A stretch of 64,000 nt of DNA from an uncultured Gammaproteobacteria bacterium (GTDB lineage: Bacteria; Patescibacteriota; Patescibacteriia; Magasanikbacterales; UBA922): the NCBI GenBank assembly GCA_964597575.1, contig CAZQXB010000001.1, forward strand, positions 128,964 through 192,963. The letters run 5' to 3'. Numbering within the stretch: the first letter of the stretch is position 1; each line of letters starts with the position of its first letter. Below the pieces are notes generated by a model that did no database searches, was not told where the DNA came from, and saw only the letters and a program-made list of their open reading frames with translations. Of the stretch, positions 34,606 through 52,690 are shown piece after piece. Made by a program: the position numbers and the translations under genes.

Positions 34606-35193
34606 ATGAGTGCGTTGGAGCCTCGGCAAAAGAAAATGTGGGAGTTGTCCACGGACGCTGTCTACGGCTACCTGTTCTGCGAAGAGTTTGATCGGGCCGC
34701 ACAGTACTTGGTGAGGTATAGACATCTGGTCAACCTCAAGCTGCGGAAAGTACGGATCTCCAAGAGAGATCAACGAGACGCGGTGGAAGTCAAGGCGTGT
34801 GAAGGGAGGCTACCCTTTCTTACCCCCGTGTACCTCCTGTTCGGAGAGAGCCTGTGGTGTCTTGGAAGAACACCCCTTGTTGCCCCTGTGCGCCAAGAGA
34901 CTCTCATCCTGGCCGGGCTCGACCTTCTTTCATGTTTGCGTGCGCACAAAGACCCCCCTTCGCCGGGCAGCTACTGGCATGATCTGGCAATACAGACGCT
35001 GTACTTCTTCAAGTGCCTCACGGTCGACCTGAGCCGCGTGCCTGAACACCCGATGCATCCTTTCTTGCGCGGATGGCAGCAAGTGTTGGGGAACTGTGAT
35101 GGGGCCGTGAGCGAGGCAATAATCTGGGGTGAACGGTTTTTAGATCGGTCTGTCGAAACAGGTGATCTGAGAGTCGTACCCGAGATTTGGTAG
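34606..35193 (+). CDS. GC-rich ORFan, hypothetical protein
   Basis: The RBS GAGGTG precedes the ATG and an upstream TTGACA motif is present. GC content is about 55%. Confidence 0.4.
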   Translation: MSALEPRQKKMWELSTDAVYGYLFCEEFDRAAQYLVRYRHLVNLKLRKVRISKRDQRDAVEVKACEGRLPFLTPVYLLFGESLWCLGRTPLVAPVRQETLILAGLDLLSCLRAHKDPPSPGSYWHDLAIQTLYFFKCLTVDLSRVPEHPMHPFLRGWQQVLGNCDGAVSEAIIWGERFLDRSVETGDLRVVPEIW

Positions 35194-42408: not shown

Positions 42409-44238
42409 ATGAAGCAACTTTTGAAACAATTTTTCCTTGTTATTGCAGTCTTAACGCTTGTGGCGTACGGGCTTAGTTTCGCAGCAAATCGTGCGGAAAA
42501 ACCACAAGATGTGGGCATTAGTAAGCTTGTTGAGCAGATTGAAGCAGAGGAGGTAAAGAGCATCGAGGTGAGAGGGGATTACATGTATGTAACCCTCAAA
42601 AAAGAAGGTGAAAAACAGGAAAAGGTGCGCAAAGAATATACGCAATCATTTTCTGAACTCATGACCGACTACGGTGTGGCCGGAGAAAAACTTCAAGGTG
42701 TTGAGGTGTCAGTGAAGGATGAAAGTGGTGTTGCTTTTTGGGTAAAATCACTCGCACCTTACTTGCTTCCATTTCTTCTTTTGGGAGGCCTTCTTTTCTT
42801 CATGACCCGCCAGGTAAACGGAGCAAACAGCCGGGCGATGGGTTTTGGTCAAAGCAGCGCAAAAGAAGTAAAACCAGAAGAAAGCAAAGAAAAGAAAACC
42901 TTTAAAGATGTTGCAGGTGCCAAAGAAGCGAAGGAGGAGCTTGAAGAAGTCGTGGATTTCTTAAAGAATCCGAAAAAATTTGCAGACATGGGTGCAAAAA
43001 TCCCTAAGGGGGTGCTTCTCATGGGGTCTCCTGGTACCGGTAAGACACTTCTTGCAAAAGCCGTTGCCGGAGAAGCCGGAGTCCCATTTTTCCACATGAG
43101 CGGTTCTGAATTCGTAGAAATGTTTGTGGGGGTCGGTGCGTCACGGGTACGTGATTTATTTCAAAAGGCGAAAAAATCTGCTCCAGCGATTATTTTCATC
43201 GATGAAATTGATGCGGTAGGTCGGAAACGTGGTGCGGGTTTAGGTGGAAGCCATGATGAACGTGAACAAACCTTGAACCAAATTCTCGTTGAAATGGACG
43301 GGTTTGATCCAAACATTGGGGTGATCGTTATGGCGGCAACGAATCGCCCAGATGTACTCGATCAGGCACTTCTTCGCCCTGGTCGTTTTGATCGTCGAGT
43401 CGTCATCGATAAGCCAGACTTAGCGGCGCGTTTAGAAATTTTACAGGTGCATGCAAAAAACAAGCCGTTCTCTCCTGAGGTGTCTATGCAGCGGTTAGCA
43501 GAACGCACCCCTGGATTTACCGGGGCAGATTTGGCGAATCTTCTCAATGAAGCGGCCATTCTTGCGGTGCGCCGCGGAAAGAAAATTATTGATCAGACCG
43601 ATGTTTTGGAGAGCATTGATAAAGTAATTTTAGGGCCAGAAAAACGTTCACGGGTGATGACTGATAAAGAACGTGAAATGACCGCGTACCACGAAGCTGG
43701 CCACGCGATTGTAGGTCACTTTATGCCAAAATGCGACCCTGTGCGTAAGGTGTCGATTATTGGTCGTGGTATGGCCGGGGGTTACACCTTGTCGATGCCA
43801 GAAACCGATAAACGTTACGAAACACTCGGCGACTTTAAAGACGACATGGCTATGGCTATGGGCGGCTACGTGGCTGAAGTGATGATGTATGGCCGTGACA
43901 ACCTTTCAACTGGCCCATCGAGCGATTTGAAAAAAGCGACTCAGATGGCAACTGCCATGGTCGTGCGCTATGGTATGAGTGAAAAATTGGGAACGCGTGT
44001 GTTTGGAGAGAATGAAGAACTTATTTTCTTGGCACAAGAAATTCATGAAAAGAAAAATTATAGTGAAAAGACTGCTGAAATGATTGACAGTGAAATTGCC
44101 GCAATTTTAGAAGAAGCAAAACAACGCGCAGAAAAAGTACTACAAGAAAAGAAACACAAGATGGATGCGCTTGTAAAAGTACTCATGGCCAAAGAAACCG
44201 TAGAACAGGATGAGTTTAAAAAGATCATGGAGGCGTAA
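42409..44238 (+). CDS. ftsH: ATP-dependent zinc metalloprotease FtsH
   Basis: N-terminal TM helices, AAA+ Walker A GSPGTGKT, the second region of homology, and the zinc motif HEAGHAIVG. Confidence 0.95.
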
Positions 44239-44250
44239 AAGTGGATATAA

Positions 44251-44280
44251 AAAAGACCCTTTCTAAAAGGGTCTTTTTTG
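44251..44280 (+). terminator. intrinsic terminator after ftsH
   Basis: Stem AGACCCTTT / AAAGGGTCT with loop CTA, followed by TTTTTTG. Confidence 0.7.
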
Positions 44281-44411
44281 TAACTCAACTCACATAAGCT
44301 CTATAGAACATTCGCGCCAATTGACGAGTGGCAAAACCCAATTTCTTGGGGGGAGAGAGTGCCAATGATCAGATAGTGAAAAGTAGGTATAGAGCTTGTG
44401 TGAAATGATTG

Positions 44412-44458
44412 TTTTTTCTCTCACCATATTCTTTAAGAAGAATATGGAATTGAGAAGG
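44412..44458. repeat. 48-bp nested-palindrome repeat, copy R1
   Basis: Sequence TTTTTTCTCTCACC-ATATTCTT-TAAG-AAGAATAT-GGAATTGAGAAGG. An outer inverted repeat (CTCTCA…TGAGAAG) encloses a 10-bp stem with a 4-nt loop. Confidence 0.7.
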
Positions 44459-44508
44459 TAATAGGGTCATTATAAACCCCATTACCATCCCTCCTGTTTG
44501 TGTGTTGT

Positions 44509-45003
44509 TTACTCCTTGATCGCCTTGAAGATGGCGAGGGTTTCGTCACACCACCAACCTGCATCGATGGTGCGACCAAAGAACTTCTTCTTCCAGCGAT
44601 CTGCCGGCTCGGGCCAGGGCTCGCGCACATCGAGAGAGGGTGCGAGAGAGCTCATCCGCCTATCGAGAGCCTCGAGGCGGAGAACCAGCTTTTTCAGCTG
44701 CGTCGGCGCGCCCTTTCCGAGCGTGTTTCGCACCTCGATCAAATCGTTCAGTTCATCTCTCTTTTTTGCCGCTCGCAACCATCGCGTCGGCCACTTTCCC
44801 TGGGGCGGAGGAGTCTTCTCGAAGAACTCTGCCGTTTTTTCGAGACCTTTGATCTGCGTCTCGAAGAAGGAGACGAGCTCCACTTTCTCCAGATCGAACA
44901 GACTTGTGATCATTTTCGCGATTTTTTCGAAGTCCTTCCCTGTCATCATCATTGTTTTCTCACTGAGGAGAAAGAGGGTCTTGGCCAAGTGGTTCGTCTT
45001 CAT
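44509..45003 (-). CDS. hypothetical protein (island ORFan)
   Basis: Helical and charged. Start set at MKTNHL, preceded by the RBS AAGGAG. GC-rich. Confidence 0.4.
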   Translation of the reverse strand: MKTNHLAKTLFLLSEKTMMMTGKDFEKIAKMITSLFDLEKVELVSFFETQIKGLEKTAEFFEKTPPPQGKWPTRWLRAAKKRDELNDLIEVRNTLGKGAPTQLKKLVLRLEALDRRMSSLAPSLDVREPWPEPADRWKKKFFGRTIDAGWWCDETLAIFKAIKE

Positions 45004-45204
45004 GGTTGTAGCTCCTTTTTTCTCTTTCATCGCTACAAATGAAAGAGGTAACGTGGGCATGGTTGCCACACAAATTAAAGGTTTTTGTTTACCTCGGGTG
45101 AGGTAAACATATCCTTCTCTCATCCACTCTTTTTGCAAAGAGGGGAAATTGAGAAGCCAAGTATCGTACGGACTTGGCCACCGTTTTTTTAGAAATTTAC
45201 TTTT

Positions 45205-45831
45205 TTATACCTCCTTTTTAGCCTGCATAAGCAATTGCCCCCACCATCCATGGGTACACTGCACACCCGTGACCATCTCGAGCGTCTCCCTATCGATATT
45301 CAAAGGGAAAGTGAGATAGTTCGGATGCTTTTGAGCAAACTCCGTAAAGATAGTGTCGAGGTCTGCCCCACCCTGCAGTTGGGTTTTCAGCCACTCGATT
45401 TCATCACTATTGTAGCGTACACTCCTTTCGTCGCACGCAGCCTGTCCTTGAACAATAGCCTCGTGCAATATTTCAAACCAAAGCCTGTAGAGCGCCACCA
45501 CTACGAGTGGGCTGTTTTCATTAGCCCAATCCTCCTTTTTTTCGCTTACCGCGAGCCTCAACGCTTCGGCACCGCTTTCTCTGATCTGACAGGTGTACGC
45601 ATCGAATACGTACGGGTCAGCCGCCAGCTGCAGAATTCGAAGGGGTATGATTTTTTCGACCTCCTCTCCCATAGCCCTGAGTTCGGGGATATTTTTCCCC
45701 GCTTGGCTGACCATTCCGGCGGCGATCCACCCGAATATGTCTTGGTTTCCCGTTCCAGCGATCCACGCTGCGATGCTGGTCGGGATCCATGAGGGAAGAG
45801 CGTTAATTTTGTCGTTCATCGTGTTCTCCAT
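45205..45831 (-). CDS. hypothetical protein (island ORFan)
   Basis: Start set at MENTMNDK, immediately downstream of repeat R2. On the minus strand the repeat ends GGTGAGAGGAAAAAAATG, which acts as the RBS and start. Confidence 0.4.
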   Translation of the reverse strand: MENTMNDKINALPSWIPTSIAAWIAGTGNQDIFGWIAAGMVSQAGKNIPELRAMGEEVEKIIPLRILQLAADPYVFDAYTCQIRESGAEALRLAVSEKKEDWANENSPLVVVALYRLWFEILHEAIVQGQAACDERSVRYNSDEIEWLKTQLQGGADLDTIFTEFAQKHPNYLTFPLNIDRETLEMVTGVQCTHGWWGQLLMQAKKEV

Positions 45832-45879
45832 TTTTTTCCTCTCACCACATTCTTTGTGAAGAATATGGAATTGAGGAGG
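45832..45879. repeat. 48-bp nested-palindrome repeat, copy R2
   Basis: Sequence TTTTTTTCCTCTCACC-ACATTCTT-TGTG-AAGAATAT-GGAATTGAGGAGG. Confidence 0.7.
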
Positions 45880-46032
45880 CGAACAGTGTTGATACAACCG
45901 TTCGCCAACTTGTCCGAATGCTTTGGACTTTTTTCTCAAAACAGATACAGAATGTATCCGGAAACGCATCAAGAATGGCGCGGATCTTCACCGATAGTTT
46001 TGAAATTTCGGCGCTTTTATTTTTTTACTTCT

Positions 46033-46311
46033 CTACTCCACCAGTTCGTGGTGGAGATAGTCCTCGTCCCAGTTGGGCCGGGGACGGACTTCGATGAACC
46101 GGGCCCGTAGGCCCGAATCCGTAACCACCTCCTTTCTATAGTATGAGTCGAGCCCCTTGTGGGGCTTAGAGGAGCGAGCACCCCAGATGGGACGAGTGAC
46201 GAGCGACACTCGCCCATCACTTTCAATCATGTAATACGTCCACGTCTTCACGACGAGGACGTTTGCTCCCTCCTTTTTGTCGACGTCGCTTTCCTTGACG
46301 TCGACTTTCAA
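46033..46311 (-). CDS. small hypothetical protein (start uncertain)
   Basis: The ORF begins with TTG. An internal AAGGAGG…ATG (MIESDGRV…) would give 65 aa. Confidence 0.3.
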   Translation of the reverse strand: MKVDVKESDVDKKEGANVLVVKTWTYYMIESDGRVSLVTRPIWGARSSKPHKGLDSYYRKEVVTDSGLRARFIEVRPRPNWDEDYLHHELVE

Positions 46312-46343
46312 GCTTCTTTCGTTGTGCAGCTGTTTATTTGTTC

Positions 46344-46921
46344 TTATGAAGTAGCTACTTTCACGAGAATCTCGGCGAGCGCCCGAATGGTCGGACGCTC
46401 TGCGACCGGTTCACCACGTTCGAGGTGGTGAACCGAGCCCTTATAGACACCATCCTCGCCGAGCAAAGGAGTGGTGTCACTGGATCCGTGGTAGTCACTG
46501 TGAACTTCGGCCAGTACCGAAATCCCCAGCTCCTCGCAAAATGCCCGCCACTCAGGCAGGCGGCCCATGTCACCTGCGAGGAGGATGGCATGGGTGGCAG
46601 AGGCACAGATCTCTCTGTTCTCTGCCGATGGAATTCCCCCGATGTCTACCAACGTCAGGGGAAGCGCGACATTTTTCACCGAGTCTGCGATGCGCCGCAC
46701 AAACTCGGGGGTGAACTTTGATTTATAGGCGGCCTTGAGTTCGGCCGCCCGTTCTGGGGATGTGTTCACCGTCTCCTGGAACCAGGAGCCCTCCCCATCC
46801 GGACACGCCGTAACCACGTATGGGTACGGCGCGCCCGGGATGGCCCGGATCGCGTCTTTGAGGCCCTGCCTGAGGCAGGATTTGCCAGAACGCGGCGGGC
46901 CACACAGTACCACTTTCATGG
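46344..46921 (-). CDS. P-loop NTPase, hypothetical function
   Basis: Start set at MKVVLCGPPRSGKS (Walker A), preceded by GGAGG. A putative Walker B is LTLVDIGG. 192 aa. Confidence 0.5.
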
Positions 46922-47255
46922 TTGCCCTCCTGAGGATTGTTACCGAACACTGCATGAATCTCTTTAGATTATGCGTGCGTGGTTTTGGTTTCCTCAATTG
47001 ATATTCCGATAAAATTCAGCGTATCAATCGAGGATCCTATAGCTGTTTGTGTGCCAAACAACTATAGGTCTCGAGTGCTTTGCCATTTATGTCCGGCGGA
47101 CAGGAGCTCTGCTTCTCCAAGGCTCACACAGTTTTGGTTGTGTGACCACCAGCCTGTCGTTTTCTAGAGTCAGGTATCTTCTTTTCCTAATGAAGAAAAA
47201 GAATCTTTACTCCAACCTGATAATCAATCAGGGAATTTTATCTAGAGGAAGTTGA

Positions 47256-47601
47256 TCAGACCTCCTTGACCTCCGTGGCCGGGATGACCTGCCCCAGGGC
47301 GAAGGTCGGGTTGTGGGTGATCGAGATCACGTACCCCCCCATCTTGGGGTCGAAGACCCCAACCGCACCGAACTTGTGGCACACCCCGTGCGCGATGACG
47401 CAGGCCGCGGGGAGCGAGGCCGGACCGTTGAGGAGGGCGATCTCCCCGCCCTGGAGCGCCAGGGCCTCGAGGGACGCCTTCGCGTCCCTCACGATCGCGT
47501 CGTTCTGGGCCGGGGTGCCGAAACCGATTTTCAAGAGCTTGCCGCTGCTGTTGCTGTTGTTGATGGTGATGGCGGTCGCGGTGACGTTGTAGGTCGACAT
47601 T
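47256..47601 (-). CDS. small Gly/Ala-rich protein, possibly GlcG/DUF336-like
   Basis: Start set at MSTYNV after GGAG. The motif …LALQGGEIALLNG…AACVIAHGVCHKFGAVGVF… is reminiscent of DUF336, but the family call is weak. Confidence 0.3.
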
Positions 47602-47930
47602 TTGAAACTCCTCCACACTTTTAACGAGTCGTGGTCTCTCGTTTTGTAGCAGTGCTTTACTGCGAAAGCGTGTTCGTTTACCCTGGTACGAACCAACCAG
47701 TGTTTCATTATTGTTTCTTTATCTGCATGTTTTTTAATCACATGGATAAAGGAATGGGCTGAAACAACTACCCAGTGGTACACCACCATGATGACAGAAG
47801 AAAAGTAATGAACGGGTTTGCACTCATGCATCCATCATCTGTTTTTCTTGTGTCTATATCAGGAAATTTCTTCCTGCTACTCCTTTCCTGTACATACAAG
47901 CAGTACACGAATAGAGTGGTAGAAAGATAT

Positions 47931-47979
47931 TTTTTTCCTCTCACCCGACTCTTCGTAAAGAGTAGGGAATTGAGGAGGC
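47931..47979. repeat. 48-bp nested-palindrome repeat, copy R3 (diverged stem with compensatory changes)
   Basis: Sequence TTTTTTTCCTCTCACC-CGACTCTT-CGTA-AAGAGTAG-GGAATTGAGGAGG. The stem is ACTCTT/AAGAGT where R1 and R2 have ATTCTT/AAGAAT. Confidence 0.7.
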
Positions 47980-48141
47980 GATCGATTGTTGTGCAAACAA
48001 ATCAATCGCCGTTCTCGAGTTGCAGCCAGGCATTTTGCCCAGCGAACCGAACAGACGTTCGGATCTTTCGCGCCGTTTTTTGAAGACGCGACTTTGGTTG
48101 GTGTGGACTATTTGTTGAGCGCGGTCCGAGCGCCTTTTTTC

Positions 48142-48423
48142 CTAAGTGGTGGCCATTTCGAATGCTTTTGCTCGCTCGGCGAGCCACTCTCGCGGACTGT
48201 CTCGCTTGAAGTGGCTTAGTGCCTCCTTGAACTTGCTTTCTGCGTGCTCGGCCGCCGTTCGGGCGGCTTGATACTCCTTCTCTACCTCCTCAAGGGAGGC
48301 CGAATCATAGAAGTCTTGCCTCCCTCTTTTTTTTGCCATCAGCCGTCTGAACATTAATTCCGATCCGGCTATCAACGAATTGGTCTCTTTTTCGACTTCG
48401 TTAAACTTTGCCTTGGTCATCAT
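48142..48423 (-). CDS. small charged helical protein (island ORFan)
   Basis: Start set at MMTKAKF after GGAGG. 93 aa. Confidence 0.35.
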   Translation of the reverse strand: MMTKAKFNEVEKETNSLIAGSELMFRRLMAKKRGRQDFYDSASLEEVEKEYQAARTAAEHAESKFKEALSHFKRDSPREWLAERAKAFEMATT

Positions 48424-49395
48424 CGTTTTGTCCGTTCTGCCTCCATGTGAGGCGGTTGTGTTCGTGCCACTCTGGCAGCGAATGGTTTTTCGGCGCACGA
48501 ACTTTCATTCCTGCGCTCGTTTTGAAAAACAACTTCCTGTGTTATTTTTCAGAACGAAATAAATTGTAATGATCATCGGCTCTCTATACAGCATTCGTTT
48601 CTCTCGCAAGCTGCACAGCGACCTGTATTTTCCGTGTGTCGGCTGTAGGCCCACACCATACTTCTACAAGTCAGCTGCTTCCTCTGTCGTAGTGCCGACT
48701 GTCCCTACCTCAAGTCATCTTGCGACGAGTTTGAGAAAGGACGCACTCGGTACTACCGTGTCTCGAAAAACACGTGTAGGGATATCGCGGGCGGGGGAGT
48801 GGCGTATTGCTACACCACTCGACCACACTCCCCATATCCACTCCTACCACGTGGGCAAGAGGGAGAATTTGTCGAGATCGAGGTGGGAAACCGCGTTACC
48901 GCAGTTGACCACACTCGGGTACTCATCTGGCGAAAAGGACTCTCTCCGTCTCACTTTCGTCATACTCGTACAGTTGTCTTGCGTTCGCTACAACCCTCAT
49001 TAAAGAGGGGAACTTGCGCCGACAATCGAAGGTAGGTAGGTGCTTCAGGCCTAGTCGTAACTGTATCCTGGCTTTACGCTTCCCTCGATTGTTGGAACAA
49101 AAACGCGCTCTATCCTGCGAGTACCATAAGGTACGTCTGTGGGAGAGAGCGCGTGTAGATTCTATATCTATATATGTACTGTGGTCTCCCGTAGGCTCTC
49201 TCCTTCCCTTGGGTGACCGGTTAAATTGTAAGGTGTTTAGCTTGGGTTACGTCCTCTTGGTCTTTCATCGTAACAGCACAGTATACCCGGTTTTGGTAAA
49301 TTTGTCAATATATGGCGTATGTATTATATATTTATATACTTTAATTTTGCTATATAAAGCTAAATAATGAAATATAAATATACGTCTATAAAAAC

Positions 49396-49424
49396 TTGAC
49401 AAATACAGTAAAGTATGCTATACT
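49396..49424 (+). promoter_or_regulatory. consensus sigma70-type promoter TTGACA-17-TATACT
   Basis: Exact hexamers with a 17-nt spacer, about 125 nt upstream of the trmB-like gene. Confidence 0.55.
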
Positions 49425-49549
49425 TTTGCTATAGTAAGCACAAAAAGATGTCTTCGTACGGGCAACGTACGAATGAGAGACATAAAAAAATGGCTTAAAT
49501 AAGCCAAGCTGTGGATAGTATTTTTCTACTCATTATATATAGGTTGATT

Positions 49550-50302
49550 ATGTCGACACTCAAAGATACGCTCGTCAAAGCCGGGCTACCTGAGCACCAA
49601 GCCGAGGTGTATGTAATTTTAGCGAGTGGAGGAGAAATGCTCGTGCCACAGATTCTTGCCAAAACGGAGCTCTCTCGGGCTACGGTGTACGATGCCCTTC
49701 CAGAATTATTGGTCCGCGGGTTATTGGAGTACCGAAAAGAGGGGAGAGAGGCATACTACAAACCGGTGCATCCAAACAAGCTGTTTGATTTACTGGAACA
49801 AAAAAAGCGCGATACCGCACTTCTTGAAGATGAAATGAAAACGACTATTAAAACCCTCGAAGGATCGTTTAGTTTGGCACAGAATAGAGCCGGGGTGCGT
49901 TTTTTTGAAGGGCTCGATGGTTTGCAAGTTGCGTTGAATGAATCACTCGATGCGAAAGATACGATTTATACGTTCGCTGATAGTAAAACCGTTGATGCCT
50001 ATTTAGCGCAAATTGATAAAGAGTATATCTCCAAGCGACTAAAAAAGCAGATTAAAAAGAAACTCATTTTAACAGACAGCGAAGAATCGAGAAAATATGT
50101 GGCTTCGATGAATACAGAATTCACTGAGGCAAAATTAATTGACCCGGCAAAATACCCATTCACCGTTGCGGTTGAAGTATATAATAACGATGTTTCATTT
50201 TTGTCGGTCAAAGATGGGCACGTGGTTTCCTTTGTTGTCACTCATGAAGAAGTGGCGCGATTTCATCGCTCACTCTTTGAGTTTTTGTGGGACAGGCTCT
50301 GA
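49550..50302 (+). CDS. TrmB-family transcriptional regulator
   Basis: N-terminal winged HTH (LKDTLVKAGLPEHQAEVYVILASGGEMLVPQILAKTELSRATVYDALPELLVRGLL) plus a C-terminal sensor-like domain. Confidence 0.6.
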   Translation: MSTLKDTLVKAGLPEHQAEVYVILASGGEMLVPQILAKTELSRATVYDALPELLVRGLLEYRKEGREAYYKPVHPNKLFDLLEQKKRDTALLEDEMKTTIKTLEGSFSLAQNRAGVRFFEGLDGLQVALNESLDAKDTIYTFADSKTVDAYLAQIDKEYISKRLKKQIKKKLILTDSEESRKYVASMNTEFTEAKLIDPAKYPFTVAVEVYNNDVSFLSVKDGHVVSFVVTHEEVARFHRSLFEFLWDRL

Positions 50303-52690
50303 AACTTTCTCAAAGCCATAGAGTCGTTCAACTTTGCGTTCCCCTAGTTCAAAATGACGAACAAGCTGGTATCCATTTTCCGTGAGTTTTGAAAAAGTCT
50401 GAGAGAGAATGGGAAGATCTTTTGGTACAGTGGCAATAAAAACAATTTGATTTTTTCCATCAAGAGGGAAGTCTCGGGGGGCTTGATGGGCTAGAGCCAT
50501 AAGATCTTCTTTGGAGAGCTTACGCAGTACACTGCTTTTTTCATCTTTGGGAATTTCTATTTCAAACCAACCATGCTTTGTGCCAGGGGCTTCTTTGTCA
50601 TATTTTACTCCTCTAAAACCAAGTTTTTCAACATAATGCGTAAGGGCTAGATTTTCCGGCACCCCTAAGGCCTCAATGGTTTGGGATCCATGATAAGATC
50701 GAATTGTCTCAGCTAAAAACTGTTCGCCAATAGCAGCACTTTTCAGATCGGGCGAAACATTCAGGCTACCAAGATATACACGGTCATCCCCTTTTTCTTC
50801 AGCACGAAGAAAAGCCGCAATACTTTTTTCGCCCTTATCATTTTGTCGCCAAAGTATTCTAAAGTCATTTTTTTGAAGAGCGTCTGAATCTTTTCCAGTC
50901 TGAGGAAAAAGCATAGACCGTACTTCTTTCGGAACTTCTGGCTCATCAGGATAGTTAGCTTCAGAAATAGTTATCATTTCTTCTTTTTCTTCTTCCGTCA
51001 AAGTTTTTCCAGGTTTTATTTCTAAAGAGAGGCCTTGGACAAGGTTCCAATCTACGCCTTCTTTCCCTTTGAAGGTTGCTTTAAAAATAGCGGCCAAGGC
51101 GACGGTCGAGGCTTCAATGCGTTCAAGTTCTTTAAGAAGTGTCTCAGGGTCCTTATCTTCTGCCTCTGCAAAGTGTTGGAGAAGCTGTGCTGCCCGTGCC
51201 GCAGCCTCTTTTGCTGCCACAGCGTGAATATTTGTATCTGAATGGCGAGGAAGAATCGAAGTGACGTATTCATCAATTCTTTCCGAGACGGTCATGACAT
51301 TGCTGTAGGCCGAAAATACTCGTTTGGCCGTTTCTTTTGGTAGGGTTTTGGCAATGGCAAGTGGAGTTTCTAGTCCCGTTTTTCCTGTCGTTGCAAAAGA
51401 CAACGCAGCTCGCGCACCATATTCTTTGAAGTGAAAGAGGAAAGCTGGAACCAATTCTTTACTATCTTCGGGAAGATTTTTTTGCCAGGAAAGGAACCAT
51501 TGTTGTTCGGCAAAAGAGAGGGTTCTCCATGGAACAAAAGGAAGTTCTTTTTCAAGCGCAAGAAGATCATGAGTGTATGATTCAGGAGTGCTTGCATCCG
51601 TTGGAAGAGGAAGAAATTGTCCAAGCTCCAGTAAGCGTTCTTTTGGGGTTACCGTGATCCTCTGACTCTCTCCATGAGGTAACGAGAAAATACCTTTGGT
51701 TTCTCCATGACCATCAACAATGGCAAAGGTGTCATTTTGGGCAATTCGTTCAACGGTGAACTCGGGGCGGTTGTATGCTCCCAAATCCCATGTTTGTCCG
51801 TAACAGGAAAAACCATCTTTCTCTATTTTGTAGGTGTTCTTGGTATTGAGAAAAAGAAGGGTGGTTTCAATATTTTTTTCACCCATGCCTGGAGCATGAA
51901 GTTCGGGGTCAGCTAGTCGTTCTCTGCGTAATTCTTGTTTTGCTTTGAAAAGGGATTGCTCAGTGTAATCTTTATCAATTTTTTTCAGAGCAGTCGATGG
52001 AATGAAAAAAATGCCATCTTGCTTGGCCAGATTGACCACATAATCGATAGTTTTTTTACTTCCAAAGGAGCCTAAGAGATCAGTAATTTTTGCGAGCATG
52101 ACCATGTGTGGGTCAAATGAAGTGTGAAACCCTGATTCAAATTCAGCTTGCATATTGTCTGACTCCTGATCATTCCGAAAATATTCAAGAACCACTTTGT
52201 TTGAGAGTGATAAGTCTGCTGTGTTTTCTTCATCATAAAGCAAGCTTGGGTTTTTTTCAGCAGACTGAGGATTTCTATTTTGGGCATTAATAATCTTCCT
52301 CCTTCGTTCAAGAATAGCCTCTGAAAGTTTTTGGTATGTGGCATCAACCCATTCTTTTGGAAGGTGATTCTGCAGTTTCTGGTCATGAGATATTTTTTGC
52401 AAAATACAATATAGAAAAAAGTCGTCGCCCCGTTCTGGGGAACGTTCGGTATCGTTGTCTTGAAGTTCAGGGAGGGTATCTTCTGGATTTGAGTAGTCGT
52501 ATGTCTCAATTGCAGTAGTGGCGGCAACGCAAAATTCATCCACTGAACCGATCAGCTGAGAAAGAATACGTTTTTCGAGTTCCGGGCGAATTCTTCCTGT
52601 GGTATAGAAATAATCGTTCTTCCTCTTGGCGTAGTCAGTGGCCTCTCTCGCGTCATCTATAAGTTGTCTCTGATACTCAGATGCTTGCAT
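50270..52690 (-). CDS. large hypothetical cytoplasmic protein (806 aa)
   Basis: Long ORF with consistent codon usage. The C-terminal ~150 aa are weakly GNAT-like (…RVYLGSLNVSPDLKSAAIGEQFL…). Confidence 0.5.
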   Translation of the reverse strand: MQASEYQRQLIDDAREATDYAKRKNDYFYTTGRIRPELEKRILSQLIGSVDEFCVAATTAIETYDYSNPEDTLPELQDNDTERSPERGDDFFLYCILQKISHDQKLQNHLPKEWVDATYQKLSEAILERRRKIINAQNRNPQSAEKNPSLLYDEENTADLSLSNKVVLEYFRNDQESDNMQAEFESGFHTSFDPHMVMLAKITDLLGSFGSKKTIDYVVNLAKQDGIFFIPSTALKKIDKDYTEQSLFKAKQELRRERLADPELHAPGMGEKNIETTLLFLNTKNTYKIEKDGFSCYGQTWDLGAYNRPEFTVERIAQNDTFAIVDGHGETKGIFSLPHGESQRITVTPKERLLELGQFLPLPTDASTPESYTHDLLALEKELPFVPWRTLSFAEQQWFLSWQKNLPEDSKELVPAFLFHFKEYGARAALSFATTGKTGLETPLAIAKTLPKETAKRVFSAYSNVMTVSERIDEYVTSILPRHSDTNIHAVAAKEAAARAAQLLQHFAEAEDKDPETLLKELERIEASTVALAAIFKATFKGKEGVDWNLVQGLSLEIKPGKTLTEEEKEEMITISEANYPDEPEVPKEVRSMLFPQTGKDSDALQKNDFRILWRQNDKGEKSIAAFLRAEEKGDDRVYLGSLNVSPDLKSAAIGEQFLAETIRSYHGSQTIEALGVPENLALTHYVEKLGFRGVKYDKEAPGTKHGWFEIEIPKDEKSSVLRKLSKEDLMALAHQAPRDFPLDGKNQIVFIATVPKDLPILSQTFSKLTENGYQLVRHFELGERKVERLYGFEKVSEPVPQKLKE

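What the first reader, a model, noticed from the sequence alone, without database searches (positions are those of the whole stretch)
44285..49500. GC-rich island of about 5 kb of ORFans with strong RBSs between ftsH and a TrmB regulator - probable horizontally acquired region
Base composition rises to about 55% GC, against about 43% in surrounding housekeeping genes. All credible ORFs switch to the minus strand (44509-45003, 45205-45831, 46033-46311, 46344-46921, 47256-47601, 48142-48423). Each ORF has a GGAGG-type Shine-Dalgarno sequence, which most native genes here lack. None of the ORFs has a recognisable housekeeping function. One is a P-loop NTPase (GPPRSGKS Walker A) and one is possibly a DUF336/GlcG-like protein. 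The island contains three copies of a structured repeat. It ends in a stretch of about 1 kb with no credible ORF, followed by an AT-rich promoter region. No integrase or recombinase is present, so it may be a degraded integrative element or a defence/accessory island.
Basis: seen in the sequence. Interest (0 to 1): 0.65.

Follow-up and report, generated by a model that had tools for sequence, protein, structure and literature searches.

The report
Hyper-structured Csx3 cassette operon in Patescibacteria
The "GC-rich ORFan island" is a minus-strand operon next to a TrmB regulator in a candidate-phyla-radiation bacterium; it carries a split CRISPR-type Csx3 ring nuclease/P-loop ATPase pair plus strain-swappable orphan genes, and its RNA, coding parts included, is predicted to be unusually heavily base-paired, which probably explains the odd GC content and the strong ribosome-binding sites.

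Summary
The compositional anomaly is real but smaller than stated. GC is 50-51% against 45.4%, about 4 SD above other 5-kb windows. At third codon positions it is extreme: 0.60-0.95 against about 0.42.

Two of the six "ORFans" are not orphans. ORF 47256-47600 is Csx3/Crn3, not DUF336. ORF 46344-46919 is the P-loop half of the known Csx3-AAA family, with more than 1000 homologues at 70-85% identity.

Csx3 and this ATPase are adjacent in 85 of 88 fetched loci. A divergently transcribed TrmB gene lies nearby in 28 of them, seven of which share a back-to-back promoter layout. The roughly 850-nt ORF-free stretch is a structured leader. It holds a covarying hairpin found in 14 loci and absent from Rfam.

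Four, not three, structured repeats bracket the cassettes. A related metagenomic strain carries different GC-rich genes in place of Csx3-AAA-C. Repeat 2, B, repeat 4, repeat 1, the 124-nt element and the terminator are 100% identical there and A is 96%. The adjacent ftsH and S1 are only 80% identical.

Cassette coding sequences fold far better than synonymous-codon shuffles (z -6 to -11; host genes 0 to -2.7).

Verdict: this is a recombining accessory locus built on a module conserved in CPR-type genomes, not a degraded integrative element.

The parts
44246..44282 (.). Bidirectional terminator hairpin shared with ftsH. It marks the right-hand boundary of the island.
   Evidence: 17-nt arms, 94% complementary, flanked by A and T runs (I7). 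Identity to L090 drops from 100% to 84% just beyond it, at the ftsH stop at 44238.
44285..44408 (-). 124-nt structured non-coding element downstream of repeat 1. No ORF.
   Evidence: Closed by a 21-nt stem (I6). 42 predicted pairs, and 100% identical in L090 although ftsH next to it is only 80% identical. Sliding-window z -5.8.
44401..44500 (-). Structured repeat, copy 1.
   Evidence: Pattern match. nhmmer E 2e-20. Two hairpins, z -6.2, and more stable on the minus strand.
44509..45003 (-). ORF A, an orphan of 164 aa (183 aa if it starts at 45060).
   Evidence: No family hit. Only itself among 5.8 billion proteins. GC3 0.71. 15 non-synonymous against 4 synonymous codon changes versus L090.
45115..45163 (-). 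Structured repeat, copy 4 (diverged), upstream of A.
   Evidence: nhmmer E 8.8e-6. Sliding-window z -8.3.
45205..45831 (-). ORF B, an orphan of 208 aa. It starts 8 nt after the GAGAGG of repeat 2.
   Evidence: No credible homologue among 1.84 billion representatives. 100% identical in L090. Coding-sequence structure z -5.9 against synonymous shuffles.
45823..45921 (-). Structured repeat, copy 2.
   Evidence: E 8e-27.
46033..46311 (-). ORF C, 92 aa, TTG start (the start is uncertain).
   Evidence: No family hit. GC3 0.72. Structure z -6.5. Absent from L090.
46344..46919 (-). P-loop NTPase, the 'AAA' half of the Csx3-AAA family. Its predicted fold is MinD/Mrp-like (SIMIBI class).
   Evidence: PADLOC PDLC01045, E 4.8e-58, profile positions 108-285. 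More than 1000 homologues at 70-85% identity. AlphaFold pLDDT 88. Best PDB fold matches are MinD, Cfd1, ApbC and ParA. Coding sequence z -9.3 against dinucleotide shuffles and -10.9 against synonymous shuffles.
47135..47237 (-). Candidate pseudoknot RNA motif just 3' of the Csx3 stop codon, inside the 336-nt Csx3-ATPase spacer (46920-47255).
   Evidence: Model R1 hits the window, L001, L002 (twice), L006 and L026. 88.9% of cells paired and 5 of 14 pairs with double changes; slid controls 20-56% paired. No Rfam hit.
47256..47600 (-). Csx3/Crn3 ring-nuclease homologue, 114 aa.
   Evidence: PF09620, 29.2 bits against cut-off 21. PADLOC Csx3 models. A profile hits the AF_1864 Csx3 structures. Invariant H71, H75, D84 and H96 (K86 nearly invariant) align with the region holding AfCsx3 H57, H60, D69, R71 and H80; H75 lines up with Af position 61, next to H60. 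GC3 0.95.
47601..47921 (-). Leader between repeat 3 and Csx3. It contains a hydrophobic ORF (47601-47831) that is in frame with Csx3.
   Evidence: 47740-47936 is 100% identical in L090, where a different payload gene follows. The ORF is also in frame with that payload. Fold z -3.4.
47922..48016 (-). Structured repeat, copy 3.
   Evidence: E 2e-24.
48142..48423 (-). ORF F, 92-93 aa.
   Evidence: No family hit. GC3 0.62. Replaced by a different gene end in L090.
48424..49272 (-). ORF-free structured 5' leader of the operon (start inferred from the promoter).
   Evidence: MFE -310.5 kcal/mol, z -7.5. Partly alignable to the leaders of L009, L015, L037 and L052.
48664..48770 (-). Conserved long hairpin motif within the leader.
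   Evidence: Models R2 and R3 find it in 14 loci, always on the Csx3/ATPase strand and upstream of the pair. 89.5% of cells paired and 20 of 29 pairs with double changes, against 5-8 in slid controls. No Rfam family.
49280..49308 (-). Sigma70-like promoter of the island operon (TTGACA, 17 nt, TATACT).
   Evidence: 11 of 12 matches. Both hexamers are conserved in 7 loci.
49349..49360 (.). GCT-N6-AGC inverted repeat between the two promoters. Candidate TrmB operator.
   Evidence: Read from the alignment: present in the window, L009, L015, L020 and L052, and with one mismatch in L037. It lies within palindrome I2. Function is inferred only.
49396..49424 (+). Sigma70-like promoter of the TrmB gene (TTGACA, 17 nt, TG, TATACT).
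49550..50302 (+). TrmB-family regulator, divergently transcribed. Functionally linked by conserved synteny.
   Evidence: PF01978, E 9e-10. A TrmB homologue lies on the opposite strand, 0.1-3.7 kb from the next Csx3/ATPase gene (or between the two genes), in 28 loci. GC3 is host-like at 0.45.

Best explanation
The region is one minus-strand transcription unit in a Patescibacteria (CPR) chromosome. The contig is 914 kb.

Shown:
- A sigma70-like promoter (49308-49280) lies back-to-back with the promoter of a TrmB-family regulator gene.
- Downstream of it lie an approximately 850-nt ORF-free leader, ORF F, repeat 3 with a further leader, Csx3, an RNA motif, the P-loop ATPase, ORF C, repeat 2, ORF B, repeat 4, ORF A, repeat 1, a 124-nt structured element and the terminator shared with ftsH.
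- The Csx3 and ATPase genes are a split form of the type III CRISPR accessory protein Csx3-AAA. With TrmB, the promoter layout and a leader hairpin, they form a module conserved in many CPR-type genomes.
- The remaining ORFs are orphan payloads that differ between strains.
- The repeats and leaders form a conserved scaffold at whose edges payloads are exchanged.
- The transcript, including most payload coding sequences, is predicted to be far more base-paired than its protein sequence and codon usage require. The excess is on the sense strand.

Inferred:
- TrmB controls both promoters through the GCT-N6-AGC repeat.
- Selection for RNA pairing drives GC-ending codons, which produces the 'GC island'. 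It also makes strong SD sites necessary in a genome whose ordinary genes lack them.
- Each repeat folds into a variable hairpin plus a hairpin enclosed by CCUCC...GAGAGG. This sequesters an SD-like site, so the repeats act as translational or processing punctuation and as homology for cassette replacement.
- Csx3 (catalytic residues conserved) degrades cA4 or a related oligonucleotide, working with the ATPase.
- The heavy pairing lets these mRNAs persist when a single-strand-specific RNase is active. This last step is the least certain.
For: Identity of the core genes.

Synteny:
- Csx3 is next to the ATPase in 85 of 88 loci.
- TrmB is nearby in 28 loci and the large GNAT-like gene in 8.
- The divergent promoter architecture is conserved in 7 loci.

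Leader:
- The leader hairpin occurs in 14 loci and shows covariation.
- The whole leader folds with z -7.5.

Repeats:
- Four copies occur, only in the island.
- Hairpin 2 shows compensatory changes across the copies (window repeats plus the two in L091) and is more stable on the minus strand.
- B in the window and a NUDIX gene in L091 start 8-9 nt after the GAGAGG.

Cassette exchange:
- L090 keeps repeat 3 with its leader and the stretch from repeat 2 to repeat 1, but has other genes in between.
- L091 has repeat, leader, a 151-aa orphan, repeat, then NUDIX.

Recent exchange:
- Island segments are 96-100% identical to L090 against 80% for ftsH and S1.
- GNAT806-TrmB is 100% identical in L092.
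- Exact protein copies in the JGI collection exist only for TrmB, GNAT806 and B.

RNA pairing:
- Synonymous-shuffle z is -10.9 for the ATPase, -6.5 for C and -5.9 for B. Host genes give -0.3 to -2.7.
- The ATPase gene gives -4.5 to -11.3 in 11 of 11 GC-type CPR loci, including two with GC3 near 0.5 (L018, L032). It gives about 0 in cyanobacteria and in the L051-type loci.
- Alternative payloads give -9.6 and -6.7. Neighbouring GC-rich genes in other loci give -5.3 to -7.1.
- The sense strand is 17-50 kcal/mol more stable than the antisense in every ATPase gene, payload and B tested (C and the leader differ by only 3-4 kcal/mol, Csx3 goes the other way).
Against: - No transcript data exist. The promoter, operon extent and leader are consensus-based inferences.
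- Csx3 itself is not unusually structured (z -1.2) although it has the highest GC3 (0.95). A and F are only mildly structured (-2.4, -2.7). RNA pairing therefore cannot be the only cause of the GC3 excess.
- The specific base pairs in the ATPase coding sequence are not conserved between homologues (alifold z -2.3). What is conserved is the degree of pairing, not one fold. A mutational or recombinational origin is not excluded.
- No cas10, CRISPR array or other cyclic-oligonucleotide synthase is in the 64-kb window. None appears in the annotated neighbourhoods of five homologous loci. The substrate of Csx3 here is unknown.
- The mosaic-identity evidence rests on short metagenomic contigs (L090, L092) that could be chimeric or come from different co-occurring strains.
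- Only 2 of 6 repeat copies are followed directly by an ORF.
Confidence: 0.55

Rival explanations
1. One-off horizontally acquired integrative element that has since degraded, imported from a GC-richer donor.
For: GC3 and SD usage are foreign-looking. A and B are orphans. Gene content varies between strains.
Against: - There is no integrase, tRNA or flanking direct repeat.
- The closest relatives of Csx3 and the ATPase are other CPR genes with the same GC3 excess.
- The core lies beside TrmB, with conserved promoters and a conserved leader hairpin, in many genomes.
- No homologue was found in viral contigs.
Confidence: 0.08
2. Ancestral, vertically inherited operon. Its odd composition comes only from selection on the RNA (or on the proteins), and no lateral exchange is involved.
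For: The TrmB/Csx3/ATPase synteny, promoter layout and leader motif are conserved. The structuredness signal holds even where GC3 is only about 0.5 (L018, L032).
Against: - Cassettes are replaced in L090 and L091.
- Island identity is 96-100% against 80% for the adjacent core genes.
- Pairwise identities of the ATPase and TrmB are almost uncorrelated (rho 0.09-0.15). TrmB identities are in the twilight zone, so this last point is weak.
Confidence: 0.17
3. The GC3 excess is a neutral by-product of GC-biased gene conversion in a recombination hot spot, not of selection on RNA.
For: Recombination is evident at this locus. A link between recombination and higher GC3 in bacteria is proposed in PMC4450053 (found). 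Csx3 has GC3 0.95 without excess structure.
Against: Synonymous shuffles keep GC3 and codon usage, yet the native ATPase, B, C and payload coding sequences are 6-11 SD more stable. The excess is specific to the sense strand. Gene conversion predicts neither result.
Confidence: 0.12
4. Integron-like cassette array. The structured repeats would be recombination sites, like attC, used by a site-specific recombinase encoded elsewhere.
For: The ORFs share one orientation and are separated by repeats whose structure is better conserved than their sequence (hairpin 1 differs in every copy). Payloads are swapped between repeats.
Against: - No IntI-type recombinase was found among the ORFs scanned around the island.
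- The repeats carry a conserved SD-like core and sit 5' of the ORFs.
- The exchange break points lie at ORF ends and about 65 nt before the Csx3 start, not inside the repeats.
- By inspection the repeats show no RYYYAAC/GTTRRRY-like cores.
Confidence: 0.08

Closest known systems
Csx3-AAA / AAA-Csx3 type III CRISPR accessory proteins (clusters 35 and 67 of Shah et al. 2019, PMC6546367; Slr7080 of Synechocystis, PMC8136920)
   Same: Both halves match the PADLOC Csx3-AAA model: Csx3 to profile positions 10-104 and the ATPase to 108-285. The two genes are adjacent and on the same strand in 85 of 88 loci, in either order, which mirrors the two fusion orders.
   Different: - Here they are two genes separated by 336 nt that contain a structured RNA motif.
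- No cas genes or CRISPR array are nearby.
- They are linked to a TrmB regulator and a long structured leader.
- GC3 is extreme and the coding RNA is hyper-structured in CPR but not in cyanobacteria.
- The 'AAA' domain model looks like a MinD/Mrp-type SIMIBI NTPase, not an AAA+ fold.
Crn3/Csx3 ring nuclease (A. fulgidus AF_1864; PMC7371418)
   Same: The Pfam family matches. The profile aligns to the solved structures. The histidine, aspartate and histidine positions corresponding to H57, H60/61, D69 and H80 are invariant in the CPR/cyanobacterial subfamily.
   Different: R71 is replaced by a nearly invariant lysine. There is a one-residue spacing difference between the two N-terminal histidines. 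Sequence similarity to AfCsx3 is low (profile E 3e-3). Activity has not been tested.
Integron gene-cassette arrays
   Same: An array of short ORFs in one orientation, punctuated by imperfect, structure-conserving repeats. Payloads differ between strains. There is a single upstream promoter.
   Different: No integrase or attI was found. The repeats are 5'-UTR-like, with a conserved SD-containing core. Break points lie outside the repeats. The scaffold is more conserved than the payload.
Genomic or defence islands at recombination hot spots flanked by core genes
   Same: Deviant composition, strain-specific content, a defence-type gene, and a fixed chromosomal position between core genes (ftsH and TrmB/GNAT).
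   Different: The core module and its regulatory RNA are conserved across a phylum-level group. The composition deviates upwards (GC-rich), whereas imported DNA is typically AT-rich (my own general knowledge).
SD-sequestering 5'-UTR elements (RNA thermometers such as ROSE and fourU; riboswitch expression platforms)
   Same: In each repeat a CCUCC tract pairs with GAGAGG across a hairpin.
   Different: The element is repeated four times within one operon. Most copies are not directly followed by a start codon. No ligand-binding or temperature-sensing features were identified.
Highly base-paired coding RNAs of single-stranded RNA phages (my own knowledge; not tested here)
   Same: Coding sequence whose synonymous sites are arranged to give pervasive pairing.
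   Different: These are chromosomal DNA genes of a bacterium, and there is no replicase or coat context.

Membership tests
Csx3/Crn3 ring nuclease | Match to the family profile above the curated threshold | tested here: met
   PF09620 scores 29.2 bits against a cut-off of 21. NCBIfam TIGR02579 scores only 25.3 against 55.4, below its cut-off. PADLOC Csx3 models give E 3e-12 to 4e-15. The family profile hits the AF_1864 structures at E 3e-3.
Csx3/Crn3 ring nuclease | Conserved catalytic and binding residues (AfCsx3 H57, H60, D69, R71, H80; PMC7371418) | tested here: met
   H71, H75, D84 and H96 are invariant and K86 is nearly invariant in 23 homologues. They align with this region of AfCsx3. 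There is an R-to-K substitution and a one-residue offset at the second histidine.
Csx3/Crn3 ring nuclease | Mn-dependent cleavage of cA4 | not testable with these tools
   Biochemical assay needed.
Csx3/Crn3 ring nuclease | Genomic association with type III CRISPR-Cas | tested here: not met
   No CRISPR-like tandem repeats in the 64 kb. No cas families among the 28 window ORFs scanned against Pfam (ORFs at 1-30 kb were not scanned). None in the annotated neighbourhoods of L001, L002, L005, L006 or L007. The rest of the genome was not seen.
Csx3-AAA (PADLOC PDLC01045; Shah cluster 35) | A Csx3 domain plus a C-terminal P-loop domain in one polypeptide | tested here: not met
   Both domains match the model (E 4e-15 and 4.8e-58). 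They are separate ORFs 336 nt apart, as they are in the CPR loci.
Csx3-AAA (PADLOC PDLC01045; Shah cluster 35) | Intact Walker A and B motifs in the NTPase | tested here: met
   GPPRSGKS(C) and LTLVDIGG are invariant in 26 homologues.
Integrative genomic island | Integrase or recombinase gene | tested here: not met
   None among the island ORFs or 10 flanking ORFs. The remainder of the window was not scanned by profile.
Integrative genomic island | Insertion at a tRNA or tmRNA gene with flanking direct repeats | tested here: not met
   The only tRNAs are at 20.9 and 21.9 kb. No direct repeats bracket the region.
Integrative genomic island | Deviant composition and variable presence among relatives | tested here: met
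Integron cassette array | IntI integrase with attI and a Pc promoter | tested here: not met
   No recombinase was found near the array. The promoter belongs to a TrmB-divergent pair.
Integron cassette array | attC sites: imperfect palindromes with R''/R' core sites, 3' of each ORF | tested here: inconclusive
   The repeats are structured and lie between ORFs. They have a conserved SD-like core, and no GTTRRRY-type cores were seen by inspection. No attC model was available to run.
Rfam RNA families (for the leader hairpin, the Csx3 3' motif and the repeats) | Match to any of 4227 covariance models | tested here: not met
   No hit reached a gathering score, and no hit at E up to 1-5 overlaps these elements in the window, L009 or L001 apart from one chance-level overlap in L009 (RF01773, 17.7 bits against a gathering score of 70, E 0.8).

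The most novel reading that the evidence does not exclude
Patescibacteria may carry a previously undescribed class of locus with four features. First, a TrmB-controlled promoter and a structured leader RNA drive an array of exchangeable gene cassettes, with Csx3 and its P-loop partner as the near-universal members. Second, the mRNAs have been selected, gene by gene and lineage by lineage, for pervasive sense-strand base pairing. Third, this produces GC3 up to 0.95 in 37-55% GC genomes and a dependence on strong SD sites. Fourth, it could serve as an RNase-resistant 'emergency' expression unit in an RNA-degrading conflict response. Under this reading cassette turnover occurs by recombination in the conserved RNA-scaffold sequences, without a dedicated integrase.
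Probability: 0.3. Interest if true: 0.8.

Novelty: new variant of a known kind. Interest (0 to 1): 0.62.

Why it matters
CPR/Patescibacteria are ultra-small, mostly uncultured episymbionts, and their defence and signalling systems are poorly known.

- A Csx3 ring nuclease and P-loop pair that is conserved with a regulator and a structured leader, but has no visible type III CRISPR system, suggests cyclic-oligoadenylate-type signalling, or another role for Csx3, in these organisms. No paper in the searchable library links Csx3 or ring nucleases with CPR or TrmB.
- Unrelated cassette genes share extreme GC3 and coding RNA 6-11 SD more stable than synonymous shuffles. This gives a concrete, testable example of selection on mRNA structure across whole genes.
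- The same finding warns that 'GC-rich island' does not automatically mean import from a GC-rich donor.
- Two RNA motifs absent from Rfam are defined with coordinates and covariation counts.

Tried and rejected
- Rfam, at gathering and permissive thresholds, on the window and on two homologous leaders: nothing relevant.
- tRNA/tmRNA scan: none near the island.
- CRISPR-array or tandem-repeat search: none.
- Exact look-up of Csx3 and the ATPase with my chosen start codons: not on record, because gene-call starts differ.
- blastn of the island against the first loci: only the Csx3 and ATPase genes aligned. Leader conservation appeared only with TrmB-anchored comparisons and covariance models.
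- Pseudoknot model R1: found only in its 6 training sequences plus one weak partial hit (L071, E 0.35), so the motif is confined to a subclade.
- Metagenome scan for the repeat pattern: a single extra locus.
- Viral-contig scan for the ATPase: none.
- Concordance of pairwise ATPase and TrmB identities as an HGT test: weak and uninformative, because TrmB identities are 21-35%.
- Conserved consensus fold for the ATPase coding sequence: not supported (z -2.3). I rejected 'the coding sequence doubles as one conserved ncRNA'.
- PDB sequence search for the ATPase: no relative.
- Flanking direct repeats as att sites: only a weak 24-nt, 79% match, which turned out to be part of the fourth repeat copy.
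- The other GC3 outlier in the window (34606-35193): not hyper-structured (z 0.3), so it does not belong to this class.

Full report
**1. Checking the observation**

The GC rise is real but overstated. GC is 0.499 for 44285-49500 (0.514 for the core), against 0.454 elsewhere. No other 5.2-kb window exceeds 0.475, and their sd is 0.011. 500-nt peaks reach 0.56-0.59.

The signal is concentrated at third codon positions. GC3 is 0.60-0.95 for the six ORFs, with Csx3 at 0.95 (57% C, 37% G, 2% A, 3% T). About 55 other ORFs in the window lie at 0.33-0.52, with one exception (0.65).

- All six ORFs lie on the minus strand. Two coordinates needed a 1-2 nt correction.
- Four of the six have clear SD sequences, whereas neighbouring host genes mostly have none.
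- The three repeats are confirmed (0 expected by chance). A fourth, diverged copy lies upstream of A.
- No tRNA, Rfam family, tandem array, flanking direct repeat or nearby recombinase was found.

**2. What the genes are**

ORF 47256-47600 is Csx3/Crn3 (PF09620 above threshold). A profile of its homologues hits the AF_1864 Csx3 structures. Invariant residues (two His, Asp, His; the Lys is nearly invariant) line up with the catalytic set described for AfCsx3 (PMC7371418).

ORF 46344-46919 matches the C-terminal half of the PADLOC 'Csx3-AAA' model at E 5e-58, and Csx3 matches the N-terminal half. The pair is therefore a split form of a known type III CRISPR accessory protein (PMC6546367, PMC8136920).

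The ATPase has more than 1000 homologues at 70-85% identity, mostly from Patescibacteria MAGs. Its AlphaFold model (pLDDT 88) resembles MinD/Mrp/ParA-type NTPases rather than AAA+ proteins.

A and B have no credible homologues in billions of proteins. C and F hit nothing in Pfam, NCBIfam, PADLOC or any fetched locus.

**3. Context in other genomes**

I fetched 88 loci. Some MAG labels are doubtful.

- Csx3 and the ATPase are adjacent on one strand in 85 of them, in either order.
- A TrmB homologue on the opposite strand lies 0.1-3.7 kb from the next Csx3/ATPase gene (or between the two genes) in 28.
- The large GNAT-like gene beyond TrmB recurs in 8.
- ftsH and S1 never recur.
- Seven loci share the same layout: a TrmB promoter, an AT-rich spacer containing a GCT-N6-AGC inverted repeat, and a second TTGACA-17-TATAMT promoter facing the Csx3 side.

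The ORF-free stretch downstream of that promoter folds with z -7.5. It contains a roughly 70-nt hairpin. Covariance models found this hairpin in 14 loci, always on the Csx3/ATPase strand and upstream of the pair. In the alignment 89.5% of cells are paired, and 20 of 29 pairs show double changes against 5-8 in slid controls (the alignment is model-fitted).

A second, subclade-restricted pseudoknot candidate sits just 3' of the Csx3 stop codon. Neither motif matches Rfam.

**4. The repeats and cassette exchange**

Each repeat (minus strand) consists of a hairpin of variable sequence, the tract CCUCCUCAAUUCC, a 10-bp hairpin with compensatory changes between copies, and GGUGAGAGGAAAAA. The CCUCC tract pairs with GAGAGG.

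Contig L090 comes from a related population.
- It keeps repeat 3 and its leader. About 200 nt of this are 100% identical.
- It keeps the block from repeat 2 through B, repeat 4 and A to repeat 1.
- It has unrelated GC-rich ORFs in place of Csx3, the ATPase and C, and a different gene in place of F.

Contig L091 shows a repeat, a leader, a 151-aa orphan, another repeat, and then a NUDIX gene.

Identity to L090 is 100% over repeat 2, B, repeat 4, repeat 1, the 124-nt element and the terminator. It is 95.8% in A, with 15 non-synonymous against 4 synonymous codon changes. It is only 80% in ftsH and S1, and the switch falls at the ftsH stop codon.

In the same metagenome, L092 is 100% identical over GNAT806 and TrmB. 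It is diverged only in the leftward promoter and the 5' part of the leader. Exact JGI copies exist only for TrmB, GNAT806 and B, not for flanking core proteins.

This mosaic indicates recent lateral exchange or recombination centred on the locus. The caveat is that the contigs are short and could be chimeric.

**5. Composition explained?**

The GC3 excess of Csx3 (0.8-0.98) and the ATPase (0.65-0.86) recurs in dozens of CPR loci whose flanks are 37-55% GC and whose TrmB genes have host-like GC3. It is absent in cyanobacteria. In several loci the GC-rich tract extends over further genes.

The ATPase coding sequence folds at -297 kcal/mol (z -9.3 against dinucleotide shuffles). I also shuffled synonymous codons among positions, which keeps the protein sequence, codon usage and GC3.

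| Sequence | z against synonymous shuffles |
|---|---|
| ATPase (window) | -10.9 |
| C | -6.5 |
| B | -5.9 |
| F | -2.7 |
| A | -2.4 |
| Csx3 | -1.2 |
| Nine host segments | -0.3 to -2.7 |
| ATPase genes in 11 of 11 GC-type CPR loci | -4.5 to -11.3 |
| ATPase genes in cyanobacteria and L051-type loci | about 0 |
| L090 payload | -9.6 |
| L091 payload | -6.7 |
| A helicase and a 258-aa gene in other islands | -5.3 to -7.1 |

- The 11 CPR loci include two with GC3 near 0.5.
- The sense strand is always 17-50 kcal/mol more stable than the antisense in the ATPase genes, payloads and B; C and the leader differ by 3-4 kcal/mol and Csx3 goes the other way.
- The actual base pairs are not conserved between homologues.

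I conclude that extensive pairing of the sense RNA is itself the conserved trait. It plausibly drives GC-ending codons and the need for strong SD sites. GC-biased gene conversion (PMC4450053) may add to this, especially for Csx3.

**6. Mechanism**

Shown: the gene identities, the synteny, the promoter motifs, the RNA covariation, the cassette differences, the mosaic identity, and the predicted excess RNA stability.

Inferred:
- TrmB regulates both promoters.
- There is one long transcript.
- The repeats act as translational or processing punctuation and as a recombination scaffold.
- Csx3 and the ATPase act on cA4-like molecules.
- The pairing gives RNase resistance.

No cOA synthase or CRISPR system was seen in the DNA available.

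**7. Verdict**

The 'horizontally acquired' reading is partly supported. The locus is a recombining, strain-variable accessory locus. It is built on a module conserved in many CPR-type genomes and is not a degraded integrative element. I rate it a new variant of a known kind (a Csx3-AAA accessory module or defence island), with an unexpected RNA-structure property worth following up.

Noticed in passing
window 47601-47831 (-): A hydrophobic ORF (MHECKPVHYFSSVIMVVYHWVVVSAHSFIHV...) with no SD runs in frame into Csx3. In L090 the same ORF, nearly identical, runs in frame into a completely different payload gene. It could be a chance open frame, a small membrane peptide, or an alternative N-terminal anchor.
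   Followed up: partly
window 34606-35193 (+): The only other GC3 outlier in the window (0.65). It has an SD-like GAAAGAGGTGAG and no Pfam hit. Its coding sequence is not hyper-structured (z 0.3), so it is probably a different kind of gene.
   Followed up: partly
window-wide: Host genes (ftsH, TrmB, gyrA, PilB-like, ThrRS and others) show no recognisable Shine-Dalgarno sequence upstream of their starts. GGAGG is four times denser on the island's coding strand (2.9 against 0.7 per kb).
   Followed up: partly
window 46344-46919 (-) and alignment A1: The 'AAA' partner of Csx3 has four invariant cysteines (C15, C39, C105, C128). Its closest structural matches include the Fe-S carriers Cfd1 and ApbC, which hints at metal or cluster binding.
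   Followed up: no
window 44509-45003 (-) versus L090 3312-3863: ORF A differs from its L090 counterpart by 15 non-synonymous and 4 synonymous codon changes, with no indels. The changes cluster at residues 56-60 and 99-113 of the 183-aa reading. This suggests relaxed or diversifying selection.
   Followed up: partly
L002 6832-6974 and 8379-8546; L005 7816-7876, 8346-8446, 9138-9335: Other CPR loci have their own locus-specific repeated non-coding elements flanking Csx3 and the ATPase. Repeat-punctuated architecture may therefore be general, even though the repeat sequences differ.
   Followed up: partly
L007 5377-5841 and L008 3963-4427: A small GNAT acetyltransferase gene is inserted between Csx3 and the ATPase. 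In L051, L053-L056, L069 and L074 the TrmB gene itself sits between them, and there the ATPase has host-like GC3 and no excess RNA structure while Csx3 stays GC-rich.
   Followed up: partly
L005 9656-11047, L006 8477-12031, L009 8638-12276, L002 11611-14657: Large DEAD/helicase-type proteins or a MoxR-VWA pair lie downstream of Csx3 and the ATPase in several loci. They are also GC-rich. This suggests that conflict-system genes cluster at this locus.
   Followed up: partly
window 49356-48865 versus L092: All 80 differences between the window and L092 fall in the leftward promoter and the 5' part of the leader, including indels. The adjoining 3.4 kb (GNAT806, TrmB) is identical. The start of the leader is thus a local hot spot of divergence.
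   Followed up: partly
window 50270-52690 (-): An 806-aa protein with only a weak C-terminal GNAT match overlaps the TrmB 3' end by 33 nt. It recurs next to TrmB in 8 loci and may belong to the conserved module.
   Followed up: no
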